DNA of 45,764 bases from a virus. The stretch is from the IMG/VR virus record IMGVR_UViG_3300006052_000013, one strand, 5' to 3'. Position 1 is the stretch's first letter; the number at the start of each line of letters is the position of its first letter. The translations under genes were made by a program, and so were the position numbers. Of the stretch, positions 27,130 to 39,304 are shown piece by piece. The notes beneath the pieces were generated by a model. That model was not told the DNA's origin, did no database searches, and saw only the letters and a list, made by a program, of their open reading frames with translations.

Positions 27130-27636
27130 TTCTCCGGTTTGTTCAAAGTGCCGGATACGTTCTTTGGTAATATTGACATACTCGGTAGTCCCCGGGGTGG
27201 CATCCCGAAGTCTTCTTTCAAAAGTTTCTGGCCAGTGACCTCGGCCGTAGTTGCGATAACCCCTTAAAAGAAACAAGCGTGCCGCGGCACTCTTATCTAT
27301 GCCAAGCCATTCCGCGGCGCGGTCGGGGGTATCCGTGTGAAAGATAAAATAAGATACGTCTGTTTCTTCATCTTTAATCGGTTTAACCTGTCCCGTCATT
27401 ACCAGAATATTTCCCGCCAGGCATCCCACCGTATTACAGGGGGGAACATCATCGGCCGTCGGCGAAAATTCTGATAATATTTGAGACACTCTTTTTTTCA
27501 AAACATCGCCTTCTTTGGCCGTTACTCCCCACAAACCCATGTTGAACCGAAGTGGTTCTTTCTCGATGTACTCAATTAACTGCTCGAGTTTCGCCACGGT
27601 TTCCGGGGATGGCTTTTCGTATTGTTGGTTTTCCAA
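27127..27636 (-). CDS. hypothetical protein (169 aa)
   Basis: TTG start with an AAGGAGAGG RBS. Confidence 0.45.
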   Translation of the reverse strand: MENQQYEKPSPETVAKLEQLIEYIEKEPLRFNMGLWGVTAKEGDVLKKRVSQILSEFSPTADDVPPCNTVGCLAGNILVMTGQVKPIKDEETDVSYFIFHTDTPDRAAEWLGIDKSAAARLFLLRGYRNYGRGHWPETFERRLRDATPGTTEYVNITKERIRHFEQTGE

Positions 27637-27651
27637 ATTCCTCTCCTTGAT

Positions 27652-27695
27652 AACGGAAGATATCCGTTACACCGGGTTTCCCCGGTGCCCTCTGG
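27652..27695 (-). repeat. short cassette, double-hairpin variant
   Basis: AACGGAagatatCCGTT + CACCGGGtttCCCCGGTGccctctgg. Confidence 0.5.
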
Positions 27696-27696
27696 T

Positions 27697-28209
27697 TTAT
27701 GCCGCCTTCTTTTTGTTGGCATTCCGGACTTTGACGCGACGTTGCATCTCGGCCGAACGTTCTTCCGGAGACATTTTGTCCCAGTAACTTTTCGCCCCGA
27801 TGGCAACTTTTGATTTTCTTTTGGTTTTCGCCCATCGCAATCGCTGGGCCTGGGCAATCCGGTTCCGTGCCGACTTGGACAGACGACGTTTCAATGGTTT
27901 GTCATCATGTGAACGAACATGAATCGTCGTCGTGCCAGGGGCGATTTCATTCCCTTGGTCGGTTGCTCCCCGCATCTGGGGCAAATGTTGGGTACCGTCC
28001 AATAACTCCCCGCGCGTCTCGGCGAGAAGAAGCGTTCCCACCCAATGGGCAGCGTCGGGCGGAGTGATCGCTCCGCCTGTCTCTGCTCCGAGGGCGTTAA
28101 GCTGCGCTTTGATATCCCGGTAAAGGTAACCGAGCCGGAATGCCGCAGTTTGGAAAATGGAATGACTTTCCTTAGTGCTCCCATACTGTTTTCCTCTCCT
28201 TGGTTTCAT
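27697..28209 (-). CDS. hypothetical basic protein (170 aa)
   Basis: ATG with a GAGGA RBS; K/R-rich C-terminus. Confidence 0.5.
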   Translation of the reverse strand: MKPRRGKQYGSTKESHSIFQTAAFRLGYLYRDIKAQLNALGAETGGAITPPDAAHWVGTLLLAETRGELLDGTQHLPQMRGATDQGNEIAPGTTTIHVRSHDDKPLKRRLSKSARNRIAQAQRLRWAKTKRKSKVAIGAKSYWDKMSPEERSAEMQRRVKVRNANKKKAA

Positions 28210-28223
28210 GTTTTTATCCTCAT

Positions 28224-28271
28224 AACGGACAGTAGTCCGTTACCGTGGGTTTACCCCACGGCCCTCTGTTA
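28224..28271 (-). repeat. short cassette, double-hairpin
   Basis: AACGGACagtaGTCCGTT + accGTGGGtttaCCCCACggccctctgtta. Confidence 0.6.
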
Positions 28272-28676
28272 CGCGAGTTCATTCATTGCACTAGCTTGTT
28301 CAAAATCCGACAACGTTCCCTCGAATGTTGCTCCGCAACTGCACGAAACTTTGTAGTCTAGAGAAAAACCATAGAACATTTTCGTTCCTCTTCCCTTGCC
28401 CTCGCTTTTTGTGGCCGGTTCTAAATCTGAACCATTACCATTGACGGAGAGGTCGTGTTCATCGCCCTCGTGGTCTTCGGGTACATACCCAGGAATATCC
28501 TGAGTTGCGCTGATATTTGCATCTTTCAATTCTTCGCCGCATTCGCCGCATTTCAATATTACTCGAACATCGGCCCGGACCTCGGCCGCGATGAGGTCCA
28601 CTTCCAAATCACCTTCTAACTCAACTTCATGGGGGTCTTCATAGGGAACAAACTTATTGCAACTTGGACAACGCAT
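28269..28676 (-). CDS. acidic Zn-ribbon protein (135 aa)
   Basis: CPSC...CGEC; starts at the M that follows the long leader. Confidence 0.5.
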   Translation of the reverse strand: MRCPSCNKFVPYEDPHEVELEGDLEVDLIAAEVRADVRVILKCGECGEELKDANISATQDIPGYVPEDHEGDEHDLSVNGNGSDLEPATKSEGKGRGTKMFYGFSLDYKVSCSCGATFEGTLSDFEQASAMNELA

Positions 28677-28682
28677 TTTCCT

Positions 28683-28772
28683 CTCCTGATATGGCAACAA
28701 ATAAGCCGTTGGCTTATTTGTTGAGGTTTCCCCTCATTGCCATTACCGGCCCGTGGGCCGGCCCTCTGTTAC
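28683..28772 (-). repeat. long three-helix leader cassette (copy 1)
   Basis: ctcctgatatggcaa-[acaaataagccgttggcttatttgt]-tgaggtttcccctcattgccattacc-[ggcccgtgggccgg]-ccctctg. Confidence 0.65.
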
Positions 28773-28987
28773 TGAATACCCCGCGCCGGTGGTACGTGGT
28801 GTGCGTCCGGACGCAATACCCCCGGCGGAACTTCCATATCGGGCGGCGGCGCACATCGGTTCTGAGATAGAAGCGCCTGTTGCATAATCTCCCAGGCCTT
28901 TTCCTGTCGCCGGGCCAAAGAGAATACATACCATAGGTACAATACTCCCAGTAAAATTAACGCCAAACTTGCCAAACCTTCATTCAT
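28769..28987 (-). CDS. small membrane protein (72 aa)
   Basis: LASLALILLGVLYLWYVF transmembrane segment; internal ATG with a GGAGGGAACAACA RBS. Confidence 0.45.
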   Translation of the reverse strand: MNEGLASLALILLGVLYLWYVFSLARRQEKAWEIMQQALLSQNRCAPPPDMEVPPGVLRPDAHHVPPARGIQ

Positions 28988-28998
28988 TGTTGTTCCCT

Positions 28999-29031
28999 CC
29001 TTACCACGGGTATTACCCCGCGGCCCTCGGT
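28999..29031 (-). repeat. short cassette (inside the C-terminus of the sigma-like gene)
   Basis: cttaccacgggtattaccccgcggccctcgg. Confidence 0.5.
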
Positions 29032-30362
29032 TGTTCTTCGGTGACCGGCGCCATCCAGTGCAGTTTTCCATCCGATTCCAGGATTAATTCTTTATCTTGG
29101 CATCGACGGATGATCGAATAGGCCTGACCATTTGTGGTACCCGCGGTCATCATCTTCTGAACTAATTCGTTCTTAGGAAGAGGCCCATCGGCGAGTATCT
29201 GTTTTAAGACCGGTTCCCAATATCCTCGTGGTGAACGAGTCTGCGGGGCATTTCCATTGACCTCATCATGGGCCGTCGCATTAATCGACTTCTTTCCCGT
29301 GATAATATCGTGGGCACTTGTCAGTTGTTCAATCACCGCGGTCCACTTACGGGCCTCGGCCTCGGATTCCGCGGCCTGCCGGGTATAAAACTGTACCTTG
29401 CGATGGGCATCAGATATCAAAGACTCGATGGTCGGTGGTGATCCACTTGGTATTTGTTCCATTGTTTTCTCTCCTTGTTGTTTTAGTTGAAAGAGATAGT
29501 TTTGATGAACAATCTCTTCCTGGGTATACTGCCGAACCGGCCCCGGTGCTGTGACCGTCCGGGGGGGACGGAGATTCACGGGGGTTTTTGCCAGAAGTCC
29601 GTGCGACGTAAATATTTGATTCGGGGCACGAGGGTCGCGTCCGCTCAGATGGTAATAACTACCCAGTTCCGTTTCATTGAATCTGGACGCCCCCGCATTC
29701 CGTGAACTTCGTATTTGCGTCGGTGGTGGACTCCCGATGTGTTCCCGGGCGGCCGCGGCGACCAGTTTTTCGCGCCGCAACCTTCGTTTTTTCTTGCTCA
29801 TTGATTTGCTCATTGATTTGCTCTCCCACAACACTCGAAGATCACTCAAACCGTGTGATTGATAGGCCTTTACGGCCCCGACGGACAAATTTAAAATTCC
29901 GGCGGTTTCTTCCAAAGTTTTTTCTTCCAGAAATCTAAGAAACAACACGCGGCGCCGGCTCCTATTCAAATACGGTAACAAGCGCAAAAAATGCTCACGT
30001 GTGATCCAGGAATCTATGGTTTTATCCGGAGTATCCGGCAAATCCAGGGTGTTTCCATCTTCATTGATGGGATTATCCAAGGATACTTCTGAAAGATTGT
30101 TCTTTCTTCGTAGGTACATCAAAAATTCCCGGTGCGCAATTTGATGCAACCAGGAACTTAATTTGGCCTCACCTCGAAAATCGCCGATGGCCAGAAAGGC
30201 CTTCGTAAAGGTCACCTGGGCCAGTTCTTCCACGGCGTCTTCATTCAGTTGCCAATATTTGCGCAAAGTTTTTTTTACCCGCGATAACTGGTCACGATAT
30301 ATTTGGGAGAACGCGTCTTGATCGCCGGATTTTGCACGATCTAATAATTCTTTTTCTTCCAC
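29013..30362 (-). CDS. ECF-type sigma-70 family factor-like protein with a roughly 270-aa C-terminal extension
   Basis: Region 2: DAFSQIYRDQ...FLAIGDFRGEAKLSSWLHQIAHREFLMYLRR. Region 4: LRFLEEKTLEETAGILNLSVGAVKAYQSHGLSDLR. GTG start with an AAGGAGAA RBS. Confidence 0.6.
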   Translation of the reverse strand: MEEKELLDRAKSGDQDAFSQIYRDQLSRVKKTLRKYWQLNEDAVEELAQVTFTKAFLAIGDFRGEAKLSSWLHQIAHREFLMYLRRKNNLSEVSLDNPINEDGNTLDLPDTPDKTIDSWITREHFLRLLPYLNRSRRRVLFLRFLEEKTLEETAGILNLSVGAVKAYQSHGLSDLRVLWESKSMSKSMSKKKRRLRREKLVAAAAREHIGSPPPTQIRSSRNAGASRFNETELGSYYHLSGRDPRAPNQIFTSHGLLAKTPVNLRPPRTVTAPGPVRQYTQEEIVHQNYLFQLKQQGEKTMEQIPSGSPPTIESLISDAHRKVQFYTRQAAESEAEARKWTAVIEQLTSAHDIITGKKSINATAHDEVNGNAPQTRSPRGYWEPVLKQILADGPLPKNELVQKMMTAGTTNGQAYSIIRRCQDKELILESDGKLHWMAPVTEEQPRAAG

Positions 30363-30384
30363 TTACGTTCTCCTTTGATATTTA

Positions 30385-30417
30385 CTTACCGGGGAAATAT
30401 ATCCCCCGGCCCTCGTT
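30385..30417 (-). repeat. short cassette
   Basis: cttaccGGGGgaaatatatCCCCCggccctcgtt. Confidence 0.6.
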
Positions 30418-30430
30418 TTTACCACTACTT

Positions 30431-30601
30431 TTACACTTTCAAAACGGGATTTTCGTCCATCACCGCACGCTCGGCCAGAAACCCCGCCGCGGTGGCGGTG
30501 ATTTCTATCTCGCGGTGCCGATCCCGCACGGTGATTGTGCGGCCATTTAATAATTCTCGCAATTCTTTTTCTCCGAGTTCTACTTTAATTGGCTCTTTCA
30601 T
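30431..30601 (-). CDS. hypothetical protein (56 aa)
   Basis: Starts at the M after the long leader (...QERNM). Confidence 0.45.
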   Translation of the reverse strand: MKEPIKVELGEKELRELLNGRTITVRDRHREIEITATAAGFLAERAVMDENPVLKV

Positions 30602-30607
30602 GTTCCT

Positions 30608-30697
30608 CTCCTGGTATGGCAAACATTGCGGCGAAGCCGCATGTTTGAGGTTTCCCCTCATTGCCATTACCGTGGATTTACCCACGGCCCTCTGAGT
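30608..30697 (-). repeat. long three-helix leader cassette (copy 2)
   Basis: ctcctggtatggcaa-[acattgcggcgaagccgcatgttt]-gaggtttcccctcattgccattacc-[gtggatttacccac]-ggccctctg. Confidence 0.65.
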
Positions 30698-30714
30698 TAC
30701 TAGGAATGGGCTTA

Positions 30715-30906
30715 TTAGGCAAACTGATAATCACTTTTTTTTGCTCGAAAGCCCTTTTTCTTGAGAAGACTGGCATCCCACCCCGTGATATCCTTCACGT
30801 CCTTTACGGCATACTCCCAGGCCTCGCTGGCAGATGTTCCGGGGCGATGATACAAAACTACCCCTTCTCGATCTACCAACATCCAAACCCGATCTAATTC
30901 TGGCAT
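30715..30906 (-). CDS. hypothetical protein (63 aa)
   Basis: Internal ATG with an AGGAGGG RBS. Confidence 0.45.
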   Translation of the reverse strand: MPELDRVWMLVDREGVVLYHRPGTSASEAWEYAVKDVKDITGWDASLLKKKGFRAKKSDYQFA

Positions 30907-30921
30907 GCTTTCCCTCCTGTT

Positions 30922-30956
30922 CATTAACGCGGCAGGTTCGCCGCGTCCCTCTGTTA
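30922..30956 (-). repeat. short cassette variant (no CTTACC)
   Basis: taaCGCGGCaggttcGCCGCGtccctctgtta. Confidence 0.45.
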
Positions 30957-32057
30957 TTGTTTGACCAAATAACTTGTATCAACATCTACGTCTTCCCCGT
31001 TTCTCGACAACCGAGTTTGGTGCGAAATCAAGGAAAGATTTTCTTGAAAACTTGCAAGTTTGGGAACCGCCGTCCGTCCGATCATTGCAATGTAACCCCG
31101 ACCCCGCCAGGGTGGCATGTGATTTCTGGACAAACGTTCGACGATGGTTCGATAGTACAACATGCGATTGGTAAAGGACTCCGGGGCACCGGGTACGGGC
31201 GGCGTAAAGCTGATCTGAATATAATCAGTCCAACTTTTATCTGCGCCCGAGGCCCGCAGTTTGTACCGGGCCAGGGCGCCCGCGAAGTACCGCGCCAACT
31301 TGACATTGGCCGCGAACTCCGTAATGCCCGGTTCCCAGGCCCGATACCGTCGACGGTAATACTCCCGTTGCTCCGTGGGAATTTCCCCAGACCAACCCAA
31401 GTCCTGCAATTTTGCCCAAGACTTGGATTTATTCCGGTCATAACCCGGTTGGTCACTATCCACCAGATACTCGTACATGGCATCTTGTATCTGGTCGGCC
31501 AGGGCAAAGTAGGCCTCATAGGTAGTCAGATGTTTTTCCCGGACCGGATTCACAAAATGAAGATTTAGAATCCGAACCAAGGCCGACAAACCCTGTGAGT
31601 ACTCTTCCACCATTTCTGCTCCGACTGGGCCATCTTCTTGGTAGAGATACTCCGCGTTGATATCTTCAACACGAAGATTAAACTGGATAGATGGTGTGAA
31701 GACTTCCCGAACCTGCCGGTAAAGGCAGGCGAGTTGTTTCAGTGCCATGACCTCGGCCACATCCAGAATGGCCCCCGTCTTGGCCTTTCGGCCGCCCCAG
31801 GGAACCAGCACCGGAATTGCCTTACCCAGTTCGAGACTCTGCCGGATGACCGCCCGAATTGTCACCAGTGCCTCGGGTTTCGGGATCGGACCATAACGAT
31901 TCTGGTTCGTTCCCAAGAGAATACCGGTGATAATCTCGAGCAATGATTGTTTTGGAGGAGCCGCGGCGACGGGAAACTCCCGCCACAGAAACTCATCAAT
32001 CAAAGACGAGTAGGGATCGTCCACGGGTGATGTAACTTGGTACGTTGCTGTACTCAT
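30954..32057 (-). CDS. hypothetical protein (367 aa)
   Basis: Starts at the M after the long leader. Confidence 0.5.
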   Translation of the reverse strand: MSTATYQVTSPVDDPYSSLIDEFLWREFPVAAAPPKQSLLEIITGILLGTNQNRYGPIPKPEALVTIRAVIRQSLELGKAIPVLVPWGGRKAKTGAILDVAEVMALKQLACLYRQVREVFTPSIQFNLRVEDINAEYLYQEDGPVGAEMVEEYSQGLSALVRILNLHFVNPVREKHLTTYEAYFALADQIQDAMYEYLVDSDQPGYDRNKSKSWAKLQDLGWSGEIPTEQREYYRRRYRAWEPGITEFAANVKLARYFAGALARYKLRASGADKSWTDYIQISFTPPVPGAPESFTNRMLYYRTIVERLSRNHMPPWRGRGYIAMIGRTAVPKLASFQENLSLISHQTRLSRNGEDVDVDTSYLVKQ

Positions 32058-32062
32058 GTTCC

Positions 32063-32157
32063 TCTCCTGGTATGGCAAACCAAGAGACGAAGTCTCTTGG
32101 TTCTGAGGTTTCCCCTCATTAACCATACTTACCGTGGTTTCCCACGGCCCTCGTCAT
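32063..32157 (-). repeat. long three-helix leader cassette (copy 3)
   Basis: ctcctggtatggcaa-[accaagagacgaagtctcttggtt]-ctgaggtttcccctcattaaccatacttacc-[gtggtttcccac]-ggccctcg. Confidence 0.65.
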
Positions 32158-32215
32158 ATCTCTAAATCTTGGAATGGCATTACATGAATATCTCTAAATC
32201 TTGGAATGGCATTAC
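32146..32215. repeat. tandem duplication (34 bp x2)
   Basis: tctctaaatcttggaatggcattacatgaata appears twice. Confidence 0.6.
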
Positions 32216-32419
32216 ATGAATACCTCCCTGGAAGTGACCCATGAACACGATGGAATGATGAAACGGGTACTTAACCTTTAACAAATTTCTGTACCGTTCA
32301 ATTTTTGTTCCGATGGTCATTCCACTTTCAGAGGCGTCGTCCGGTCCTACTTCGACGATTGCCAGATTGTTCATGTAATCTTCATTGGAATGGTGGTTGA
32401 TAACGTAGATTAGTTTCAT
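32180..32419 (-). CDS. hypothetical protein (79 aa)
   Basis: Starts at the M after the long leader. Confidence 0.45.
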   Translation of the reverse strand: MKLIYVINHHSNEDYMNNLAIVEVGPDDASESGMTIGTKIERYRNLLKVKYPFHHSIVFMGHFQGGIHVMPFQDLEIFM

Positions 32420-32424
32420 GTTCC

Positions 32425-32536
32425 TCTCCTGGTACAGCAACAAGAGACGGTTTAAGTTTCTTGTTTGGGATTTTTTCCCGGCTGTACTTACCGCGGGTTT
32501 CCCCGCGGCCCTCGTATCACTGCGAGAATCGCAGAG
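32425..32536 (-). repeat. long leader cassette (copy 4, variant) plus a trailing hairpin
   Basis: ctcctggtacagcaa-[caagagacggtttaagtttcttg]-...cttaccGCGGGtttcCCCGCggccctcgtatcaCTGCGAgaaTCGCAGag. Confidence 0.6.
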
Positions 32537-32550
32537 ATATGTTTTTATTT

Positions 32551-32709
32551 TTACTGCGCCGCCACGGCGCTCGCCGCACTTGAAAAAACGTTATTGGAAT
32601 TGCTTCCAATCAGGCGAACCGTACCGACGACGATTACCAGAATTACCGCCAGCATCACGGCGTATTCTGCGATATCTTGCCCTTCTTCGGACTTCCACAG
32701 TGTTTTCAT
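32551..32709 (-). CDS. Flp/Fap-type pilin-like peptide (52 aa)
   Basis: MKTLWKSEEGQDIAEYAVMLAVILVIVVG resembles the Flp pilin motif G-x-x-A-I-E-Y-(A/G)-L-I; RBS AAGGAG. Confidence 0.5.
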   Translation of the reverse strand: MKTLWKSEEGQDIAEYAVMLAVILVIVVGTVRLIGSNSNNVFSSAASAVAAQ

Positions 32710-32720
32710 TGTTTTCTCCT

Positions 32721-32828
32721 TTAGTGAACTTGCCGATACAACAACCACAACAAAAAAAACCACGCGGTTGCGGAGATATCAAACCAGGTAAACCCCATGA
32801 AGACGGGGTGCAAGTTAAATGGCCACAT
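32721..32828 (-). CDS. small hydrophobic peptide (35 aa, MWPFNLHPVFMGFTWFDISATAWFFLLWLLYRQVH)
   Basis: ATG with a GGAGGA RBS just after a cassette element. Confidence 0.3.
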   Translation of the reverse strand: MWPFNLHPVFMGFTWFDISATAWFFLLWLLYRQVH

Positions 32829-32848
32829 ATCGCGCGTCCTCCTTTCAA

Positions 32849-32894
32849 GTCAATGGGGAGATTGACTTACCGTGGTTTCCCACGGCCCTCGTTA
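32849..32894 (-). repeat. short cassette, double-hairpin
   Basis: GTCAATggggagATTGAC + ttaccGTGGtttcCCACggccctcgtta. Confidence 0.6.
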
Positions 32895-33014
32895 ACGAAC
32901 CACGCTATAAACCAGATTAACATTGTCGCCGATTAGGTGGCGACTGCCGATGATAATGATTACGACGACCGCCAGTACTACTACGTACTCTCCGAGTTGT
33001 TTAAGTTTGTTCAT
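32892..33014 (-). CDS. Flp-pilin-like peptide (40 aa, MNKLKQLGEYVVVLAVVVIIIIG...)
   Basis: GEYVVVLAVVVIII follows the Flp-like pattern; RBS GGAGGAAACA. Confidence 0.4.
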   Translation of the reverse strand: MNKLKQLGEYVVVLAVVVIIIIGSRHLIGDNVNLVYSVVR

Positions 33015-33028
33015 TGTTTCCTCCGGTA

Positions 33029-33059
33029 CTTACCGGCCCAGATGGGCCGGCCCTCGTCA
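33029..33059 (-). repeat. short cassette
   Basis: cttaccGGCCCAgatgGGGCCggccctcgtca. Confidence 0.6.
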
Positions 33060-33272
33060 CGCAGTAATAGGTTCCAGGGTAACCTTGAAACCCTTGAGGT
33101 CCCCGAGTTCAGAGATACCCAGTTCTTTCATCGCCTCCAGACGGTTGACGTAGATGTTGGTGAGTACGCCGGACTGATCCTTGGGAAGGCTGTATTTGAC
33201 TGCTCCCTTCTTGGGATCAACCACGCGCAGCTCTACGGTTACCGTCTTGGCCTTTGGTTTTTCGGGTGCCAT
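33057..33272 (-). CDS. hypothetical protein (71 aa)
   Basis: Internal ATG with a GGAGAGGAAAAAT RBS. Confidence 0.45.
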   Translation of the reverse strand: MAPEKPKAKTVTVELRVVDPKKGAVKYSLPKDQSGVLTNIYVNRLEAMKELGISELGDLKGFKVTLEPITA

Positions 33273-33301
33273 ATTTTTCCTCTCCACTTTTAAGGTCACC
33301 G

Positions 33302-33376
33302 CCGGATTCGTGCCCCCGGCTTGTGCCTTACCGTGGGTTTCCCCACGGCCCTCGTATCACTGCGATAATCGCAGAG
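33302..33376 (-). repeat. short cassette with flanking hairpins
   Basis: CCGGattcgtgccCCCGG ... cttaccGTGGGtttccCCACggccctcgtatcaCTGCGAtaaTCGCAGag (the tail duplicates 32507-32536). Confidence 0.6.
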
Positions 33377-33391
33377 ATATGTTTTGAGTTT

Positions 33392-33604
33392 CTATTCACC
33401 ACCGTTGAAAGCACCGTCGGCGAGTAAATCGCAGGCGATGTCCATCGACTTGACGACGACCGCGGTCAGTGTTAATGCCTCGTGTCGCAAAAGAAAAGCG
33501 GCCACGATCAAAATCACTAACACGATCAGTTTAAACCACATACTGTGGTAAACCCGCCAAAATCTATTCTTGGCCCGGAGACGGCTTTGTCGTCTTCGGT
33601 TCAT
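33392..33604 (-). CDS. small membrane protein (70 aa)
   Basis: KLIVLVILIVAAFLL transmembrane segment. Confidence 0.4.
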   Translation of the reverse strand: MNRRRQSRLRAKNRFWRVYHSMWFKLIVLVILIVAAFLLRHEALTLTAVVVKSMDIACDLLADGAFNGGE

Positions 33605-33606
33605 TG

Positions 33607-33747
33607 ATTTATACTCGTGCGCCGCCGGCGATGGCAACTGATGCCACCCCACCCAGAAACGCAAGTTCAATCAGCAACCGATACACGTCATGAGAAACAT
33701 ACCACATGATCGCGTCTTGCAGACGTTTGACCACTTTGTCTCGGGAC
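33607..33747 (-). CDS. small membrane protein (46 aa, MSRDKVVKRLQDAIMWYVSHDVYRLLIELAFLGGVASVAIAGGARV)
   Basis: ATG with a GGAGAGGAACAAT RBS. Confidence 0.35.
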
Positions 33748-33775
33748 ATATTGTTCCTCTCCTAATAAGGCTCAC

Positions 33776-33838
33776 TCCGGTTTTCGTGCCCCCGGATGGT
33801 GGCCTTACGGGTCACCGGAGTGACCCGCCTTCGGGGAA
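33776..33838 (-). repeat. cassette variant
   Basis: CCGGttttcgtgcccCCGG...ccttacGGGTCACcggaGTGACCCgccttcgggg. Confidence 0.45.
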
Positions 33839-33843
33839 ACAAC

Positions 33844-34059
33844 TTAGGCGGCCTGGTTCAAATCGTACCGGGCCAAATCATGCTGGTTTGCATGGTGAAC
33901 CTTTTCGGCCCACTTTACGGCGACGGCCGAGGTTAGATAGTTGGTTTCTTCGACCGATCCGTCTGAGTGTTCCAGAATAATACGATCGGCGGCCTCGATG
34001 GCCTTGTTGATTGCTTCTTGACGACGCATATCGCGATTGTTGATACTATCCGTGATCAT
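33844..34059 (-). CDS. hypothetical protein (71 aa)
   Basis: RBS AAGGAGAGGAAA. Confidence 0.45.
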   Translation of the reverse strand: MITDSINNRDMRRQEAINKAIEAADRIILEHSDGSVEETNYLTSAVAVKWAEKVHHANQHDLARYDLNQAA

Positions 34060-34063
34060 TTTC

Positions 34064-34115
34064 CTCTCCTTACAAGGCTCACTCTATTGTGGCCTTACCG
34101 TGGGTTTTCCCCACG
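34064..34115 (-). repeat. short cassette
   Basis: aaggctcactctattgtggccttaccGTGGGttttccCCACggccctcgtta. Confidence 0.6.
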
Positions 34116-34122
34116 GCCCTCG

Positions 34123-34380
34123 TTATATTTGTAGTGGTTTATTTTCGTTGAGACTGCGAGTAACCGCCGCCCAGGAAAATTCCAGACGCATTTCCCGTAC
34201 CTGGGGCACGTCCAGATTCATATGGGAGTAAACGGAAACTACGCAATAATCTAACATTCGACCAGAAGTAACGGCAGTAAGAATGACCCGTGGGCCAACC
34301 TGGAGTTTGACCATGGGTAATTCTTTTTTGACCTTTTCCTCGGTCCATTCCGGATTGGGTGTCGATTTTGCTTTTTTCAT
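34123..34380 (-). CDS. hypothetical protein (85 aa)
   Basis: Internal ATG with a GGGGAGGAATGG RBS. Confidence 0.45.
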   Translation of the reverse strand: MKKAKSTPNPEWTEEKVKKELPMVKLQVGPRVILTAVTSGRMLDYCVVSVYSHMNLDVPQVREMRLEFSWAAVTRSLNENKPLQI

Positions 34381-34601
34381 ACCTTTACCATTCCTCCCCA
34401 AGACCGTTGATAAAATACCCGGAACCCGGCGGTTTGAACATCGATCACCGCGCGACGCCTCGCGGTCTCACCCGGAAAGATGAGGTACTTAAACGGCCCC
34501 GCCTCGGTGGTACCGTACGTAATCGTCGGATGAATCACCCGTCGTATTTCGTCGAATTCGCTCTTTTTGACGGCGAACTCAGGCTGATTTGGTCTTGGCA
34601 T
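34377..34601 (-). CDS. hypothetical protein (74 aa)
   Basis: Internal ATG with an AGGAGG RBS. Confidence 0.45.
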   Translation of the reverse strand: MPRPNQPEFAVKKSEFDEIRRVIHPTITYGTTEAGPFKYLIFPGETARRRAVIDVQTAGFRVFYQRSWGGMVKV

Positions 34602-34797
34602 ACCGGGCCTCCTGAATGGTCCCATTTTCGATGACCTTTTTGATCAGACTAGTTTCAAATCCACTTAACTGGAAGCCAAATGGATTGGGCGCCGAACCCT
34701 TTTGTCCGGTCAGTAACCATGTACGATATGCCCTCGCATACCGCCGTTGATTACAAGGTAATCGATGAATGTAATCATCAATAATTTTGTTTTGCAT
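34579..34797 (-). CDS. hypothetical protein (72 aa)
   Basis: Starts at the M after the long leader. Confidence 0.45.
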   Translation of the reverse strand: MQNKIIDDYIHRLPCNQRRYARAYRTWLLTGQKGSAPNPFGFQLSGFETSLIKKVIENGTIQEARYAKTKSA

Positions 34798-34803
34798 ATT
34801 CCT

Positions 34804-34897
34804 CTCCTGGTATGGCAGTGTCGACGGCGGAGGCCGTCGCACTCTGAGGTTTCCCTCTGCCACACTTACCGTGGAAGTTATCCCACGGCCCTCGTTC
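34804..34897 (-). repeat. long three-helix leader cassette (copy 5)
   Basis: ctcctggtatggca-[gtgtcgacggcggaggccgtcgcac]-tctgaggtttccctctgccacacttacc-[gtggaagttatcccac]-ggccctcg. Confidence 0.65.
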
Positions 34898-35123
34898 AAA
34901 TACGTTCTACCAGAAAAGGTTCGCCCAAAAACTGGCCATCCTCGAAGGGCGCCACGTTAAATTCAGAACCACACTTAGAACATTTTATGTTTTGACTTAA
35001 CCCACCCCGTCGTCCTTGAAAAAATGTGTCGTTATTACAGTCTGGACAAACGTGACGGTTGGCAATGGCATCAAAAACTGGATCAACAACGGGTGCTTTT
35101 TTCTTACGAAATGGGTTCCACAT
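34896..35123 (-). CDS. Zn-ribbon protein (75 aa)
   Basis: CPDC...CSKC. Confidence 0.5.
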   Translation of the reverse strand: MWNPFRKKKAPVVDPVFDAIANRHVCPDCNNDTFFQGRRGGLSQNIKCSKCGSEFNVAPFEDGQFLGEPFLVERI

Positions 35124-35143
35124 CTTTGTCGTTCTCCTTTGTA

Positions 35144-35175
35144 CTTACCACGGGTTACCCCCGTGGCCCTCGTTA
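35144..35175 (-). repeat. short cassette
   Basis: cttaccACGGGttacccCCGTggccctcgtta. Confidence 0.6.
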
Positions 35176-35296
35176 GTGACGCGTTATAAACCATTGAACC
35201 ATCAAGATGACCCCGGTAATCGAAAACCCAACGATTACCGCCCCAATCATCGTGGCGATCCAACCATGTTGAGGCTCCTCTTCGTCATTGTTTTTC
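35173..35296 (-). CDS. small membrane peptide (41 aa)
   Basis: MKNNDEEEPQHGWIATMIGAVIVGFSITGVILMVQWFITRH. Confidence 0.3.
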
Positions 35297-35467
35297 ATCT
35301 CTGGTCGCCTTATGATAGGCGCGAACCCGAACAGAATGAACAAAATTTGACATCGGTTCTTTTTTAGAATCTGTTTGGCGAAAGCAAAATTCATTAGACC
35401 CGGCCCGGCAACGAGGGCAGGGGATTAAAATAATGCGATCCCGACTGGCGGGTTTTACTCTTGGCAT
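35285..35467 (-). CDS. small Zn-finger protein (60 aa)
   Basis: CPRC...C; RBS AAGGAGAAAACA. Confidence 0.4.
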   Translation of the reverse strand: MPRVKPASRDRIILIPCPRCRAGSNEFCFRQTDSKKEPMSNFVHSVRVRAYHKATRDEKQ

Positions 35468-35483
35468 TGTTTTCTCCTTTGTA

Positions 35484-35517
35484 CTTACCGGCCCATGACT
35501 GGGCCGGCCCTCGTTTA
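35484..35517 (-). repeat. short cassette
   Basis: cttaccGGCCCAtgacTGGGCCggccctcgttta. Confidence 0.6.
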
Positions 35518-35533
35518 CCACATTATGAATTAT

Positions 35534-35824
35534 TCATGCCGCCCGCTTTGGCATGACTTTTAAGACTCCCCGCCGTTTGGCAAGATCGAACAGTTGGTAG
35601 TGAATTGCCTGTTCGACGGGCATCGTCGTCGCCAATTTACCCTGGCGTTTAACCTCGGCGATGACCTCGCCACTCGTGGCCTTTTTGAGTTTCTTAATGG
35701 CCAATACGGTGGCGCCGGCGTGGGTATGGGGTTTTAATTTGGTGATATCCACCTTCGGTTTTGCAACCAGCGCGTAAAACTGTCGTCCCGTTGCAGACTG
35801 CACGGGCTTCTTTTGACTTTTCAT
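35534..35824 (-). CDS. lysine-rich histone-like DNA-binding protein (paralog of the gene at 25754-26164)
   Basis: GRQFYALVAKPKV...HAGATVLAIKKL...VIAEVKRQGKL aligns with GRKLYSLVAGVKL...HPGAVVHALRKL...VIVEVEKQGKI. Confidence 0.55.
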   Translation of the reverse strand: MKSQKKPVQSATGRQFYALVAKPKVDITKLKPHTHAGATVLAIKKLKKATSGEVIAEVKRQGKLATTMPVEQAIHYQLFDLAKRRGVLKVMPKRAA

Positions 35825-35859
35825 TTGAATCTCTCCTATCACGAACAAATTTGCTTCCA

Positions 35860-35913
35860 ACGCACGGCCTGGAGGGACGAGTGCGTTACCACGGTTTCCC
35901 GTGGCCCTCTGTT
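35860..35913 (-). repeat. short cassette, double-hairpin
   Basis: CGCACggcctggagggacgaGTGCG + ttaccACGGtttcCCGTggccctctgtta. Confidence 0.55.
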
Positions 35914-36178
35914 ATTGAACAGTAATCGGAATAAACCCCGCCGATCGTAGGCAGGACGCACAACTGACCGAGAAGTGATATATTTGTCTTTTTGGGTCGG
36001 TTTCTTCAGGACAACTCTTGCAACTGATTACGCCCATGGAAGTTTCGGTGGCCGGCTCAAAAAACTCCACGTCGCCGGGGTTACCGACATGTTCACATAC
36101 CAAATAACCTGCTTCCCGAACCTCCGGATATTTTTCACATCCGACGATCGGGTATACATCAATATTATCTACTGTCAT
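35912..36178 (-). CDS. Cys-rich hypothetical protein (88 aa)
   Basis: ORF with an RBS. Confidence 0.5.
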   Translation of the reverse strand: MTVDNIDVYPIVGCEKYPEVREAGYLVCEHVGNPGDVEFFEPATETSMGVISCKSCPEETDPKRQIYHFSVSCASCLRSAGFIPITVQ

Positions 36179-36195
36179 TGTTTCTCCTTTATTTG

Positions 36196-36230
36196 GTCGT
36201 AACGCCGGGGATCACCCGGCGCCCTCTGAA
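36196..36230 (-). repeat. short cassette variant
   Basis: taaCGCCGGGgatcaCCCGGCGccctctgaa. Confidence 0.45.
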
Positions 36231-36384
36231 TATTCTTCCTCTGTCATCTCTTCATCAAGATCAATAAACTCGACGGTGTATTTCATCCCTTTAGAATATT
36301 TCTCTGGAATTAAAGACTCCGCCAAAAGAACCGCCTGGGTGCGGTTTTCTGCCTCCAGTACAGTTTCGTACTTGACCCGCCATC

Positions 36385-36627
36385 TCATGCCACCCTCCGG
36401 CCGTTTTCCACCAATTCATACTTGTAACGATATCGAACGAACTGGTAGAAAAAACGACCCTTGGAATGTGCCCGTTGAAAGCGGCCGAAGGTCAGGGGAC
36501 CTACGCCAAAGTAACGATACATGCGGCCGGTCAGGAATCTTACGTACAGAATCCGCCGCAGCACGTCATATCCGATACTTTGGATATTGGTCGAATCTAC
36601 CTCGATCATTCCCACTTGTGTTGTCAT
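36385..36627 (-). CDS. KTSC-domain protein
   Basis: SIGYDVLRRILYVRFLTGRMYRYFGVGPLTFGRFQRAHSKGRFFYQFVRYRY. Confidence 0.55.
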   Translation of the reverse strand: MTTQVGMIEVDSTNIQSIGYDVLRRILYVRFLTGRMYRYFGVGPLTFGRFQRAHSKGRFFYQFVRYRYKYELVENGRRVA

Positions 36628-36636
36628 ATTTCCCTC

Positions 36637-36667
36637 CTTAAACCCCCTCAGAGGGGGTTCCCTCGCC
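36637..36667 (-). repeat. cassette variant
   Basis: cttaaaCCCCCTCagaGGGGGttccctcgcc. Confidence 0.4.
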
Positions 36668-36884
36668 TTTCCATCTTGATCATTCCGTACATAATCATCG
36701 CCAGTCCCATGGCCACGACTTCCTCCGGCCGGGGGTAACTTTCAACATGTTTCACCATGGCCGTGGTGAGCGGTATATTCGGCGACACACCCTTTTTAGC
36801 CAGGCGTGTGCGCAGTTCATTTAGGGAGATGACTCCTAGTTCTTCCAATCTTTTCTTGGTTTTTTCTACATTTTGTCGGTTCAT
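36648..36884 (-). CDS. hypothetical protein (78 aa)
   Basis: Internal ATG with an AAGGAGAGAAT RBS. Confidence 0.45.
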   Translation of the reverse strand: MNRQNVEKTKKRLEELGVISLNELRTRLAKKGVSPNIPLTTAMVKHVESYPRPEEVVAMGLAMIMYGMIKMERRGNPL

Positions 36885-36903
36885 TTGAAATTCTCTCCTT
36901 GTA

Positions 36904-36934
36904 CTTACCACGGATTTCTCCGTGGCCCTCGTTA
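36904..36934 (-). repeat. short cassette
   Basis: cttaccACGGAtttctCCGTggccctcgtta. Confidence 0.6.
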
Positions 36935-36953
36935 TCAGGGACACTACATCTTG

Positions 36954-37364
36954 TTAAATGGGTTCGATTTTATTGACCTCATCCCATTTCAGGCCCAAAA
37001 CGTGAAAGGCCATCCGGGCGTGATAACCAAAATGGTTATCCCCCGTGGTGACTATCCGTTTGCGGAGTTCCAGCTTATCTGCCGTATCGGAGGTACTAGA
37101 TAAACAACTGGCCTGATTACCGTTCTCCCATAGGCCAAGACGGCCTCGGATTACCTCGGTCGTCGCCCATTTGGCATCATGGTCGCTGATGCCATTTTGC
37201 GAGTTCTGTTCATCCGGACCGCGCAACGCCGAAAGAACCCACCATAGGGCCTTCCCCTGTGATATTTTGTAGAGATTGTCGCCACCCCGGTCTAGTACAT
37301 CCGTCGGTGACGAATTTTTGTTGATTTCTTTGGCAATCTCCCGCAGCAATTCAATCCATTTCAT
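36954..37364 (-). CDS. hypothetical protein (136 aa)
   Basis: RBS AGGAGAGGAATTAAC. Confidence 0.5.
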   Translation of the reverse strand: MKWIELLREIAKEINKNSSPTDVLDRGGDNLYKISQGKALWWVLSALRGPDEQNSQNGISDHDAKWATTEVIRGRLGLWENGNQASCLSSTSDTADKLELRKRIVTTGDNHFGYHARMAFHVLGLKWDEVNKIEPI

Positions 37365-37398
37365 GTTAATTCCTCTCCTATTTAAAGATTTGATTGGT

Positions 37399-37431
37399 CT
37401 TACGGGTCACCGAAGTGACCCACCCTCGTTA
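37399..37431 (-). repeat. short cassette (GGTCACCgaaGTGACC subtype)
   Basis: cttacGGGTCACcgaaGTGACCCaccctcgtta. Confidence 0.6.
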
Positions 37432-39303: not shown

Positions 39304-39304
39304 G

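What the first reader, a model, noticed from the sequence alone, without database searches (positions are those of the whole stretch)
32551..33014. Flp/Tad-type pilin-like peptides encoded inside the phage small-gene array
The two peptides:
- 32551-32709 encodes MKTLWKSEEGQDIAEYAVMLAVILVIVVG... This carries the hallmark Flp prepilin motif (G/x-x-x-A-I/V-E-Y-A/G-L-I followed by a hydrophobic helix).
- 32892-33014 encodes a second, shorter relative (LGEYVVVLAVVVIIIIG).
- A 35-aa hydrophobic peptide lies between them.
- The six-frame track masks the first gene behind an R-rich out-of-frame ORF (32591-32848).

Why it matters: Flp pilins are substrates of the Tad secretion system, so phage-borne copies could interfere with or exploit host Tad pili (receptor masking or superinfection exclusion).
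Basis: partly seen in the sequence, partly recalled or inferred. Interest (0 to 1): 0.5.

Follow-up and report, generated by a model that had tools for sequence, protein, structure and literature searches.

The report
Phage-borne Flp pilin and uncleavable mimic
A large uncultured phage of peat-soil Acidobacteria carries, among its early small genes, an intact copy of its host's Tad-pilus building block (Flp pilin) plus a shortened relative that has lost the processing site, most plausibly to tamper with the host's adhesive pili.

Summary
All three small ORFs are on the minus strand, each with a Shine-Dalgarno site.

- **Peptide 1** (32551-32709, 52 aa) is a genuine Flp prepilin. It is 78-89% identical to thousands of Terriglobia proteins. 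In 43 of the 80 best genome loci the homologue sits directly upstream of rcpC-secretin-tadZ-tadA-tadB-tadC. The G/QDIAEY cleavage site is intact, and every mature residue lies within host variation. Pfam Flp_Fap scores only 16 bits (cut-off 32.2), but the host pilins tested score similarly weakly.
- **Peptide 2** (32892-33014, 40 aa) is a divergent Flp paralogue (hhalign 96.7%). A six-residue deletion removes the acidic patch and the invariant Gly-1, so it should not be cleavable.
- **Peptide 3** (32721-32828, 35 aa) is an aromatic orphan whose stop codon abuts peptide 1's ribosome-binding site.
- **The overlapping 85-aa ORF** has no support.

The surrounding element is a tailed phage of at least 99.5 kb with no tad genes in the parts examined. 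At least two unrelated bona fide phage contigs also carry such pilins. No literature report or cultured-phage homologue was found.

Function is inferred, not shown. I favour early pilin mimicry that disables or re-signals host Tad pili, giving superinfection exclusion (about 0.4).

The parts
32551..32709 (-). flp: a 52-aa Flp (Tad, type IVb/IVc) prepilin. It has a 10-aa leader MKTLWKSEEG, the cleavage motif G/QDIAEY, and a 42-aa mature helix.
   Evidence: ORF and Shine-Dalgarno site. 78-89% identity to Terriglobia Flp pilins. Homologues head tad operons. pN 0.025-0.07 against pS 0.69-0.91. The AF2 model is a single helix, residues 7-51, pLDDT 82.
32721..32828 (-). A 35-aa aromatic and hydrophobic orphan peptide (MWPFNLHPVFMGFTWFDISATAWFFLLWLLYRQVH). 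Its TAA stop is followed at once by the AGGAG of flp, so the two are likely co-transcribed and translationally coupled.
   Evidence: ORF and strong Shine-Dalgarno site. Called as a gene on other contigs. No homologue in 1.84 billion representatives apart from itself and one spurious repeat protein. No Pfam, NCBIfam or PHROG hit.
32892..33014 (-). A 40-aa divergent Flp paralogue (MNKL-KQLGEYVVVLAVVVIIIIGSRHLIGDNVNLVYSVVR). It lacks the WxxEEG segment, including Gly-1, so it is predicted not to be cleaved by a prepilin peptidase.
   Evidence: hhalign 96.7%, E 3.9e-10 against the Flp alignment. BLASTP 44% identity, E 2e-9 against peptide 1. MAFFT places a 6-residue gap over the cleavage site. tblastn hits host flp genes at 43-49% identity. 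No other homologue in the word-indexed search of 5.8 billion proteins. AF2 gives a single helix, residues 3-39, pLDDT 93.
33057..33272 (-). A 71-aa gene of unknown function. It is the first gene of the repeat-bounded 840-bp block that also holds the three peptides.
   Evidence: ORF and Shine-Dalgarno site. Called on other contigs. No PHROG or precomputed Pfam hit. No counterpart near host flp genes.
33028..33056 (-). A copy of the recurrent intergenic element CGAGGGC-hairpin-TAAGT. It lies 13 nt upstream of the ATG of the 40-aa gene.
32865..32891 (-). A copy of the same intergenic element, with stem CCGTGG/CCACGG and a GAAA loop. It lies upstream of the 35-aa gene. flp has no copy of its own.
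32487..32551 (-). The downstream copy of a 65-nt direct repeat. It holds a 23-nt palindrome (32516-32538) and a hairpin element (32486-32514), and it begins at the flp stop codon.
   Evidence: Family D15, 92% identity. The palindrome occurs only at these two sites, with 0 expected by chance.
33327..33391 (-). The upstream copy of the 65-nt direct repeat (palindrome 33356-33378). With its partner it brackets the 840-bp block.

Best explanation
**Identity (shown).** A tailed phage of at least 99.5 kb, most likely infecting Terriglobia (Acidobacteriota), has captured a host major-pilin gene of the Tad (Flp, type IVc) pilus. It keeps the gene intact in its one-strand array of small genes upstream of the replication module. 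Beside it sit a divergent Flp paralogue that has lost the prepilin cleavage site, and a 35-aa aromatic membrane peptide whose stop codon abuts flp's ribosome-binding site.

**Mechanism (inferred).**
1. The peptides are probably made early and insert into the inner membrane in prepilin topology.
2. Peptide 1 is processed by the host TadV/CpaA-type peptidase and joins or floods the host pilin pool.
3. Peptide 2 keeps the E-Y core and the G...LIG.N.N.V.S face of the pilin but cannot be processed. It would act as a dominant-negative pilin mimic on the peptidase, the TadB/C platform or a pilin-sensing partner.
4. Peptide 3 may assist, in the way PfsE binds PilC.
5. The net effect is loss or retraction of functional Tad pili on the infected cell. 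This would block adsorption of further Tad-pilus-dependent phages (superinfection exclusion) and stop progeny being wasted on infected cells.
For: **Pilin identity**
- 43 of the 80 best genome loci have the homologue about 100 bp upstream of rcpC-secretin-tadZ-tadA-tadB-tadC.
- Gly-1 is invariant in 117 of 117 homologues, and all 42 mature residues of the phage copy lie within host variation.
- Both proteins give single-helix models.

**Retention under selection**
- The ORF is intact and has a Shine-Dalgarno site.
- Synonymous sites are saturated while pN is 0.07 or less.

**Peptide 2 as a mimic**
- It is homologous to Flp, but a 6-residue deletion removes exactly the acidic patch and Gly-1. 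E, Y, G, L-I-G, N, N, V and S are conserved.
- Host tandem flp paralogues all keep the site.

**Genomic setting**
- The peptides lie in the small-gene array, far from the endolysin module.
- No tad machinery genes were found in the window or in the flanks inspected.

**Recurrence**
- Seven IMG/VR contigs that share nothing else with this phage carry such pilins.
- One lies beside a 1943-aa tail protein and one lies 4.5 kb from TerL and portal.

**Precedent**
- The first 17 residues of mature Caulobacter Tad pilin, added as a peptide, cut PhiCbK susceptibility by 77% and attachment by 71% (PMC7196804).
- In that paper, deleting two acidic leader residues (D11, E12) was used to make PilA cleavage-deficient.
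- Phages are known to disable type IV pili for exclusion, for example PfsE binding PilC (PMC8764522) and Aqs1 (PMC13436744).
- Tad pili are phage receptors (PMC11067988).
Against: - No functional data of any kind exist. The host is uncultured and known only by inference.
- It is not known whether this phage, or any phage of these hosts, uses Tad pili.
- A fully wild-type-like, processable pilin (peptide 1) is not what one would design as an inhibitor. It fits supply or replacement of pilin at least as well.
- No TadV/A24 peptidase was seen in the host tad loci inspected, so processing is assumed.
- Peptides 2 and 3 are orphans with no diverged relatives. Their conservation, and even their translation, cannot be tested by comparison.
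- All copies of the phage found are about 100% identical across the locus.
- Early timing is inferred from position only.
Confidence: 0.4

Rival explanations
1. Gain of function, in the manner of a moron or auxiliary gene. The phage supplies a processable major pilin, and perhaps an accessory variant. This would keep up, boost or re-coat host Tad pili during infection. Infected cells would then stay attached or aggregated in the peat matrix so that progency reach neighbours. Alternatively, the outward-facing C-terminus would differ enough to evade competing pilus-binding phages.
For: Peptide 1 is indistinguishable from an assembly-competent host pilin, with an intact cleavage site and an invariant core. 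Its differences from the host consensus cluster in the C-terminal tail (V35A, S38A, and the AAQ ending). In solved Tad pili that tail points outward (PMC11067988). Host genomes themselves keep extra orphan and tandem flp copies.
Against: Every C-terminal residue of the phage pilin also occurs in host homologues, so there is no phage-specific surface. A phage with its own replication module, and with no integrase found in the regions examined, gains little from long-term adhesion. This reading does not explain why the second copy lost its cleavage site.
Confidence: 0.22
2. Signal mimicry without exclusion as the goal. Membrane-resident pilin helices imitate the 'pili retracted / surface contact' signal that the inner-membrane pilin pool provides. 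This would reprogramme host second-messenger, cell-cycle or replication state to favour phage replication.
For: In Caulobacter, the inner-membrane reservoir of Tad pilin signals through its 17-residue transmembrane segment to PleC-PleD, raises c-di-GMP and starts the cell cycle. Polymerisation is dispensable (PMC7196804). Both phage peptides retain that segment. Host tad loci lie next to sigma-54 activator and FHA/SpoIIE regulators.
Against: No PleC-like pilin sensor is known in Acidobacteria. The precedent comes from one alphaproteobacterium. This reading cannot be separated from the best explanation with sequence data alone.
Confidence: 0.12
3. Neutral passenger. A host flp gene and a decaying duplicate were picked up by recombination at the repeated intergenic elements and have no adaptive role.
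For: The block is bracketed by 65-nt direct repeats, in an array built like the shuffling-prone PeSL regions of T4-type phages (PMC2839356, PMC4122927). Peptides 2 and 3 are orphans.
Against: The flp ORF is intact and has a Shine-Dalgarno site. GC3 is shifted towards the phage (0.58 against 0.67-0.70 in hosts). Synonymous sites are saturated with very low pN. Peptide 2 keeps the pilin's conserved positions despite 56% divergence. Pilins recur in phage contigs that share nothing else with this phage.
Confidence: 0.1
4. Generic small membrane peptides, such as holin, antiholin, depolarising or transporter-blocking peptides, whose pilin ancestry is irrelevant.
For: All three are single-helix hydrophobic peptides. 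Phage early regions are rich in such peptides.
Against: The endolysin module is elsewhere, convergent beyond the left end of the window. Conservation of 80% or more, including the leader's LW..EEG/Q motif, is not needed for a generic membrane peptide.
Confidence: 0.05
5. The real gene is the out-of-frame 85-aa arginine-rich ORF (32591-32848).
For: It is the longest ORF over that stretch apart from plus-strand ORFs.
Against: It has a TTG start inside the Shine-Dalgarno region of the 35-aa gene and no family hit. The overlapping frame is under strong purifying selection and matches thousands of proteins. Gene callers did not call it.
Confidence: 0.01

Closest known systems
Flp1/PilA major pilins of Tad (type IVc, 'type IVb Flp family') pili, such as Aggregatibacter Flp1 and Caulobacter crescentus PilA (PDB 8U1K)
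   Same: A small prepilin with a short leader, the G/XXXXEY site and a single amphipathic helix. Close homologues (79-85% identity) are the first gene of flp-rcpC-rcpA-tadZ-tadA-tadB-tadC operons. The alignment profile aligns end to end with the solved pilins, though weakly (E 0.03-0.09).
   Different: It is encoded by a phage with no Tad machinery nearby. It scores below the Pfam PF04964 gathering score. The second copy lacks the cleavage site altogether.
CIP peptide, the first 17 residues of mature Caulobacter Tad pilin (PMC7196804)
   Same: A pilin transmembrane-helix fragment that is not assembled into pili. It nevertheless impairs pilus function, attachment and pilus-dependent phage infection. 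Peptide 2 is in effect a natural, genetically encoded pilin helix that cannot enter the normal processing route.
   Different: CIP is a synthetic peptide added from outside and acts through PleC. Here the peptide is phage-encoded, full length, made inside the cell, and has no known target.
Phage-encoded type IV pilus inhibitors used for superinfection exclusion: PfsE (Pf4, binds PilC), Tip (D3112, targets PilB) and Aqs1 (DMS3)
   Same: Small phage proteins that would switch off a retractile pilus serving as a phage receptor. PfsE is likewise a very small protein acting on the inner-membrane T4P component PilC (PMC8764522), which invites comparison with the 35-aa peptide. That PfsE is itself a hydrophobic inner-membrane peptide is recalled from memory, not taken from the text read.
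   Different: Those inhibitors target type IVa pili of Pseudomonas and are not pilin homologues. No PHROG family matched any of the three peptides in a meaningful way. An anti-Tad role here is inference.
PeSL (promoter-early stem-loop) cassettes of T4-type phages (PMC2839356, PMC4122927)
   Same: Many small, fast-evolving early genes are each separated by a repeated regulatory motif containing a stem-loop. Repeats bracket insertable gene blocks, as the 65-nt repeats bracket the flp block.
   Different: The motif is different (CGAGGGC-hairpin-TAAGT). No sigma-70-type promoter consensus is detected. The phage is unrelated to T4. Function is unknown.

Membership tests
Flp/Fap prepilin (Tad pilus major pilin; Pfam PF04964, COG3847) | Small prepilin, about 50-80 aa, with a mature part of about 40-50 aa | tested here: met
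   Peptide 1 is 52 aa with a 42-aa mature part. Homologues are 50-56 aa.
Flp/Fap prepilin (Tad pilus major pilin; Pfam PF04964, COG3847) | Leader ending in Gly, followed by XXXXEY (the G/XXXXEY prepilin peptidase site) | tested here: met
   Peptide 1 has SEEG/QDIAEY. Gly-1 is invariant in 117 of 117 close homologues. Peptide 2 fails this feature: in MNKL-KQLGEY, Leu occupies position -1 and the acidic patch and Gly are deleted.
Flp/Fap prepilin (Tad pilus major pilin; Pfam PF04964, COG3847) | Hydrophobic N-terminal segment and a single alpha-helix fold with no globular domain | tested here: met
   AF2 gives helix 7-51 (pLDDT 82) for peptide 1 and helix 3-39 (pLDDT 93) for peptide 2. This agrees with the solved Tad pilin architecture (PMC11067988). 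Foldseek returned nothing for so small a helix.
Flp/Fap prepilin (Tad pilus major pilin; Pfam PF04964, COG3847) | Pfam PF04964 match at or above the gathering score | tested here: not met
   16 bits, E 0.01, against a cut-off of 32.2, although the match covers profile positions 2-45 of 46. 24 of 25 aligned members match only between E 8e-5 and 0.1. This includes pilins that head tad operons, so the model under-covers this subfamily.
Flp/Fap prepilin (Tad pilus major pilin; Pfam PF04964, COG3847) | Close homology to pilin genes that are part of tad/cpa operons | tested here: met
   P0016 (79% identity) and P0112 (82%) are the first genes of flp-RcpC-secretin-TadZ-T2SSE-T2SSF-T2SSF operons. The same holds for 43 of the 80 best GTDB loci, including those at 85% identity.
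Flp/Fap prepilin (Tad pilus major pilin; Pfam PF04964, COG3847) | A cognate TadV/CpaA peptidase and Tad machinery available in the same cell | tested here: inconclusive
   None is encoded in the window or in the phage flanks inspected. Related host genomes have the machinery, but no A24 peptidase was seen within 8-10 kb. The actual host is unknown.
Flp/Fap prepilin (Tad pilus major pilin; Pfam PF04964, COG3847) | Processed and polymerised into pili | not testable with these tools
   Needs expression, mass spectrometry and pilus labelling.
Phage-encoded pilus inhibitors for superinfection exclusion (PfsE, Tip, Aqs1 type) | Sequence membership in a described phage protein family | tested here: not met
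   The PHROG scan at E up to 1 gave no family for peptides 1 and 3. Peptide 2 gave only phrog_32755, of unknown function, at E 0.0097. GenBank phages gave no tblastn or blastn match.
Phage-encoded pilus inhibitors for superinfection exclusion (PfsE, Tip, Aqs1 type) | Binds a pilus machine component, abolishes piliation and protects from pilus-dependent phages | not testable with these tools
   Needs two-hybrid, piliation and plaque assays.
PeSL-type regulatory cassettes (context of the gene array) | A repeated stem-loop motif between small early genes, bracketing variable gene blocks | tested here: met
   There are 32 copies on the coding strand. 29 have perfect stems of at least 5 bp, with 23 distinct stem sequences. 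65-nt repeats flank the flp block.
PeSL-type regulatory cassettes (context of the gene array) | Contains a recognisable host-type early promoter | tested here: not met
   The sigma-70 consensus scan of 32000-33800 found nothing on the minus strand and no excess over shuffles.

The most novel reading that the evidence does not exclude
The trio is the first anti-Tad-pilus system of a phage and works by pilin mimicry. An uncleavable pilin look-alike (peptide 2) and a PfsE-like aromatic peptide (peptide 3) would jam the TadV/TadBC machinery or the cell's pilin-pool sensor. The wild-type-like pilin would saturate the pool. Together they would retract or abolish Tad pili, excluding competing phages. 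If so, captured and decapitated pilins would be a general, recurrent phage strategy, as the other phage contigs carrying Flp genes hint.
Probability: 0.2. Interest if true: 0.75.

Novelty: new variant of a known kind. Interest (0 to 1): 0.5.

Why it matters
Tad pili drive adhesion, surface sensing and biofilm formation in many bacteria, and they serve as phage receptors. All characterised phage-encoded pilus inhibitors target type IVa pili and are unrelated to pilins.

A phage that carries its host's Tad pilin, together with a copy stripped of its processing site, suggests a different route: molecular mimicry of the filament subunit. If confirmed, it would have three consequences.
- It would give a natural, genetically encoded counterpart of the synthetic CIP peptide and a lead for anti-adhesion peptides.
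- It would provide a host-linking marker for uncultured Acidobacteria phages in peat.
- It would show that pilin genes found in viral contigs need not be host contamination.

Tried and rejected
**Family and profile scans**
- Pfam and NCBIfam scans of the peptides gave only a sub-threshold Flp_Fap hit and nothing for peptides 2 and 3.
- PHROGs gave nothing useful.

**Searches for the same genes in known phages**
- Megablast of 12 kb, tblastn of peptide 1 and blastn of the flp gene against 50,697 GenBank phages all gave no match. The tblastn negative may partly reflect low-complexity masking.

**Searches for diverged relatives of this phage**
- These were wanted for conservation tests on peptides 2 and 3. 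Scans of IMG/VR with the 367-aa and 520-aa neighbour proteins found none.
- All contigs carrying the exact peptides are 99.5-100% identical and show no variation in the three genes.

**Orphan status of peptides 2 and 3**
- Peptide 2 found only itself in the 5.8-billion-protein word search.
- Peptide 3 found only itself and a spurious repeat protein in the full HMMER search.
- Neither peptide 3 nor the neighbouring small genes have counterparts near host flp genes.

**RNA and structure**
- Rfam and tRNA scans of the window were empty.
- The RNA fold of the locus is not unusual overall (z -1.25).
- Foldseek of the single-helix model against the PDB returned nothing.
- The PDB sequence profile search gave only weak hits to Tad pilins (E 0.03-0.09), and these ranked below a chance transporter helix.

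**Failed look-ups and literature**
- Two look-ups of proteins at the left end of the window found no record.
- Literature searches for phage-encoded Flp pilins found no report.

**Rejected readings**
- The 85-aa out-of-frame ORF as the real gene.
- A holin role, because the lysis module is elsewhere.
- Host contamination, because the whole region is phage-like and the genes are embedded between phage-specific repeated elements.
Full report
**1. What is in the sequence**

All genes in this part of the window run on the minus strand.

- **Peptide 1.** The ORF at 32551-32709 encodes MKTLWKSEEGQDIAEYAVMLAVILVIVVGTVRLIGSNSNNVFSSAASAVAAQ. Its ATG is preceded by AGGAGAAAACA.
- **Peptide 3.** That ribosome-binding site follows directly on the TAA stop of a 35-aa ORF (32721-32828, MWPFNLHPVFMGFTWFDISATAWFFLLWLLYRQVH). 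The 35-aa ORF has its own AAAGGAGG site.
- **Peptide 2.** A third ORF (32892-33014) encodes MNKLKQLGEYVVVLAVVVIIIIGSRHLIGDNVNLVYSVVR behind GGAGGAAACA. An in-frame TAA lies 18 nt upstream, so it cannot be longer.
- **Independent calls.** Gene callers on three metagenome contigs of the same phage called the 40- and 52-aa genes on all three contigs, and the 35-aa gene on two of them, L002 and L003.
- **The 85-aa ORF.** The arginine-rich ORF at 32591-32848 exists. It starts with TTG inside the ribosome-binding site of the 35-aa gene and has no family match. It lies out of frame over a strongly constrained gene (see section 2).

**2. Peptide 1 is a genuine Flp prepilin of Terriglobia type**

Pfam PF04964 gives only E 0.01 and 16 bits against a gathering score of 32.2, although the match spans the whole profile.
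- **Direct homology.** The best non-self hits have E about 1e-18 and 78-89% identity. They are 50-56 aa long and are named 'Flp family type IVb pilin' or 'Flp pilus assembly pilin Flp' by their sources. They come mostly from Terriglobales and Acidobacteria.
- **Alignment.** From Gly-1 through QDIAEYAVMLAVILVIVVGTVRLIGSN.NNVFSS the family is nearly invariant.
- **Per-position check.** In 117 close homologues Gly-1 is invariant. Every one of the 42 mature residues of the phage protein is also found in host proteins.
- **Weak Pfam coverage.** 24 of 25 aligned members match Flp_Fap only between E 8e-5 and 0.1. The sub-threshold score is a property of the model for this subfamily, not of the phage gene.
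- **Genomic context.** P0016 (79% identity) and P0112 (82%) are the first gene of flp-RcpC-secretin-TadZ-T2SSE(TadA/CpaF)-T2SSF-T2SSF operons.
- **Wider context.** Among GTDB species representatives there are at least 588 matches. The best 80 are almost all Terriglobia, Acidobacteriaceae or Ca. Sulfotelmatobacter MAGs from peat, bog and soil. In 43 of these 80 the homologue lies about 100 bp upstream of the six tad genes, including loci at 85% identity. The remainder are orphan copies.
- **Selection.** Against host genes, synonymous sites are saturated (pS 0.69-0.91) while pN is 0.025-0.07. GC3 has shifted towards the phage, 0.58 against 0.67-0.70. The Flp frame is the coding frame, and the gene is not a fresh, decaying capture.
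- **Structure.** AlphaFold predicts one continuous helix, residues 7-51, pLDDT 82. This is the architecture of solved Tad pilins, whose N-terminus points to the filament core and whose C-terminus points outward (PMC11067988). The family profile aligns end to end, though weakly, with Caulobacter PilA 8U1K and an Flp pilin 8U2B.

**3. Peptide 2 is a decapitated Flp paralogue; peptide 3 is an orphan**

*Peptide 2*
- It has no homologue but itself in the word-indexed search.
- It matches the Flp alignment with hhalign probability 96.7%, E 3.9e-10.
- It matches peptide 1 at 44% identity, E 2e-9, and host flp genes at 43-49%.
- MAFFT aligns it as MNKL------KQLGEY. The missing six residues are the W..EEG segment that carries the acidic patch and the cleavage-site glycine. 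Leu sits where Gly-1 should be.
- The E-Y pair, the mid-helix Gly, L-I-G, both Asn residues, and Val and Ser of the outer half are all retained.
- Host genomes sometimes have tandem flp pairs (6 of 80 loci), but both members keep G/QDxAEY.
- In Caulobacter, deleting two acidic leader residues (D11, E12) was used to make PilA cleavage-deficient (PMC7196804).
- Peptide 2 should therefore sit in the membrane like a prepilin and stay unprocessed. It is predicted to be a single helix (pLDDT 93).

*Peptide 3*
- It has no detectable relative in 1.84 billion representatives. The only other hit is a spurious repeat protein.
- It has no family match.
- It is aromatic-rich, with one hydrophobic segment, and its stop codon abuts flp's ribosome-binding site.

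**4. The carrier is a tailed phage with no tad genes in the regions examined**

*Genes in the window* (Acb2/Tad1 domain)
- Replication: family A DNA polymerase, UvrD-like and SNF2 helicases, and an AEP primase.
- Nucleotide metabolism: dCMP deaminase, ThyA-like and ThyX enzymes, and a MazG-like protein.
- Other: RNA ligase, C5 methyltransferase, a sigma factor, a Pam3 gp34-like protein, and an Acb2/Tad1-hairpin protein.

*Beyond the window*
- On a 99.5-kb contig of the same phage, the region past the left end of the window holds a convergent module. It contains an endolysin and a tail protein of at least 1190 aa.
- To the right, the small-gene array runs on for about 6 kb to a divergent switch.

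*What is absent*
- No Tad machinery or A24 peptidase appears in any of this.
- The polymerase is under 30% identical to that of any GenBank phage.
- Neither GenBank phages nor PHROGs contain a match to the pilin.

**5. Recurrence in other phages**

- IMG/VR holds seven contigs with this pilin subfamily (62-73% identity). They share nothing else with the window.
- In a 102-kb contig the pilin lies beside a 1943-aa Phage-tail_3 protein. In a 37-kb contig it lies 4.5 kb upstream of TerL and portal and is directly followed by a 49-aa membrane peptide.
- These are most simply read as independent captures. That argues for a selective benefit.

**6. Local architecture**

- The array is punctuated by 32 coding-strand copies of [AC]GAGGGC-hairpin-(G)TAAGT/TAATG/TAACG.
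- 29 copies have perfect stems of 5-8 bp, with 23 different stem sequences and often a GAAA loop.
- Peptides 2 and 3 each have a copy just upstream. flp has none, so it presumably rides on the transcript of the 35-aa gene.
- The 840-bp block holding a 71-aa gene, peptide 2, peptide 3 and flp is bracketed by 65-nt direct repeats (92% identical). These contain a 23-nt palindrome found nowhere else in the window.
- This resembles the PeSL cassettes that shuffle small early genes in T4-type phages (PMC2839356, PMC4122927). However, the motif differs and no sigma-70 consensus is seen.

**7. How it most likely works**

*Shown*
- The pilin identity, the intact processing site of peptide 1 and the deleted site of peptide 2.
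- Purifying selection on flp.
- The phage context and the absence of tad genes from the regions examined.
- Placement away from the lysis module.

*Inferred*
- The peptides are probably made early and insert into the inner membrane.
- Peptide 1 is matured by the host peptidase and enters or floods the pilin pool.
- Peptide 2, which keeps the pilin's conserved positions but cannot be processed, acts as a dominant-negative mimic on the peptidase, the platform or a pilin sensor.
- Peptide 3 may help, as PfsE does by binding PilC (PMC8764522).
- The predicted outcome is loss or retraction of Tad pili and exclusion of pilus-dependent phages.

*Precedent*
- The 17-residue N-terminal segment of mature Caulobacter Tad pilin, supplied as a peptide, lowers PhiCbK susceptibility by 77% and attachment by 71% (PMC7196804).

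I put this mechanism at about 0.4.

*Rivals*
- **Supply or re-coating of pili to keep infected cells attached (0.22).** This is favoured by the entirely wild-type look of peptide 1. It is weakened by the decapitated paralogue and by the lack of any phage-specific surface residue.
- **Signalling mimicry aimed at host physiology rather than exclusion (0.12).**
- **Neutral passenger (0.10).**
- **Generic membrane peptide (0.05).**
- **The out-of-frame ORF (0.01).**

**8. Comparison with what is known, and novelty**

- As a protein, peptide 1 is a new member of the Flp family. It meets every sequence-level defining feature tested except the Pfam threshold.
- As a phage function, it lies closest to the pilus-disabling exclusion proteins of Pseudomonas phages. 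It is not homologous to them, and it would target a different pilus class by a different principle, namely subunit mimicry.
- Five literature searches found no report of a phage-encoded Flp pilin.
- I therefore class it as a new variant of a known kind, of moderate interest (0.5). The genomic facts are solid and somewhat unexpected. The mechanism is untested, and the host is uncultured.

Noticed in passing
window 27125-43703, minus strand (for example 33028-33056, 32865-32891, 32486-32514): There are 32 copies of an intergenic element, [AC]GAGGGC + hairpin + (G)TAAGT/TAATG/TAACG, placed between a stop codon and the next ribosome-binding site. The same pattern gives 4 hits on the other strand. 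29 copies have perfect stems of 5-8 bp, with 23 different stem sequences, so there are many compensatory changes. 8 copies have a GAAA loop. No Rfam family and no sigma-70 consensus match. It could be a promoter for the phage sigma factor, an RNA processing or stabilising site, or a protein-binding RNA hairpin.
   Followed up: partly
window 32487-32551 and 33327-33391: 65-nt direct repeats (92% identical) bracket an 840-bp four-gene block that contains the pilin genes. Each repeat holds a 23-nt palindrome, ATCACTGCGA-N-AATCGCAGAGAT, which is found only at these two sites. On the plus strand it reads as a hairpin followed by a T-run. It could be an operator, an antisense terminator or a recombination scar.
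   Followed up: partly
window 28674, 30599, 32055, 32417, 39499, 42940 (families D3, D4, D9): A near-identical 5' leader, GTTTGCCATACCAGGAGAGGAACATG on the coding strand, recurs in front of six genes. It is often preceded by a second conserved hairpin (TGAGGGGAAACCTCA), and a 28-nt stretch is 100% identical at 28721 and 30645. These genes belong to the AGAGGGC...TAATG subclass of the element.
   Followed up: no
window 18149-20704, minus strand: An 851-aa protein with a major-vault-protein shoulder domain (PF11978, E 1.5e-26) and a Vault_3 repeat. No PHROG match. This is an unusual thing to find in a phage replication region.
   Followed up: no
window 22283-22669, minus strand: A 128-aa protein with an Acb2/Tad1 hairpin domain (precomputed Pfam PF24729; phrog_2428, E 9e-17). 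It is probably an anti-CBASS/Thoeris nucleotide sponge.
   Followed up: no
window 5143-7462 and 13213-13920, minus strand: dCMP deaminase, a ThyA-like enzyme, a kinase/UDG-like fusion and ThyX occur together, with a MazG-like protein at 1284-1922. This hints at a modified-pyrimidine pathway.
   Followed up: no
window 29013-30362, minus strand: A phage sigma factor of 449 aa. Regions 2 and 4 lie in the first 180 residues, followed by a long uncharacterised C-terminal extension. It is a candidate reader of the repeated intergenic element.
   Followed up: no
L104 12071-20474 (contig ERZ27247953:k141_4512440, beyond the left end of the window): A convergent late module with an endolysin (Phage_lysozyme, phrog_7) and a tail protein of at least 1190 aa (phrog_1101). 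It confirms a tailed phage of at least 99.5 kb whose DNA polymerase is under 30% identical to any GenBank phage.
   Followed up: partly
L012 9998-10156; L013 5269-5574; L014 10001-10144: Other viral contigs carry Flp pilins. L012 has Ala instead of Gly at position -1. In L013 the pilin is immediately followed by a 49-aa membrane peptide. In L014 (a 463-kb contig) the pilin sequence ends a 149-aa ORF.
   Followed up: partly
L024-L103 (host genome loci): Terriglobia genomes carry this pilin in two settings. It heads a tad operon in 43 of 80 loci and stands alone in 37 of 80. 6 of 80 have tandem flp pairs about 500 bp apart. No A24 prepilin peptidase was seen within 8-10 kb in the annotated examples.
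   Followed up: partly
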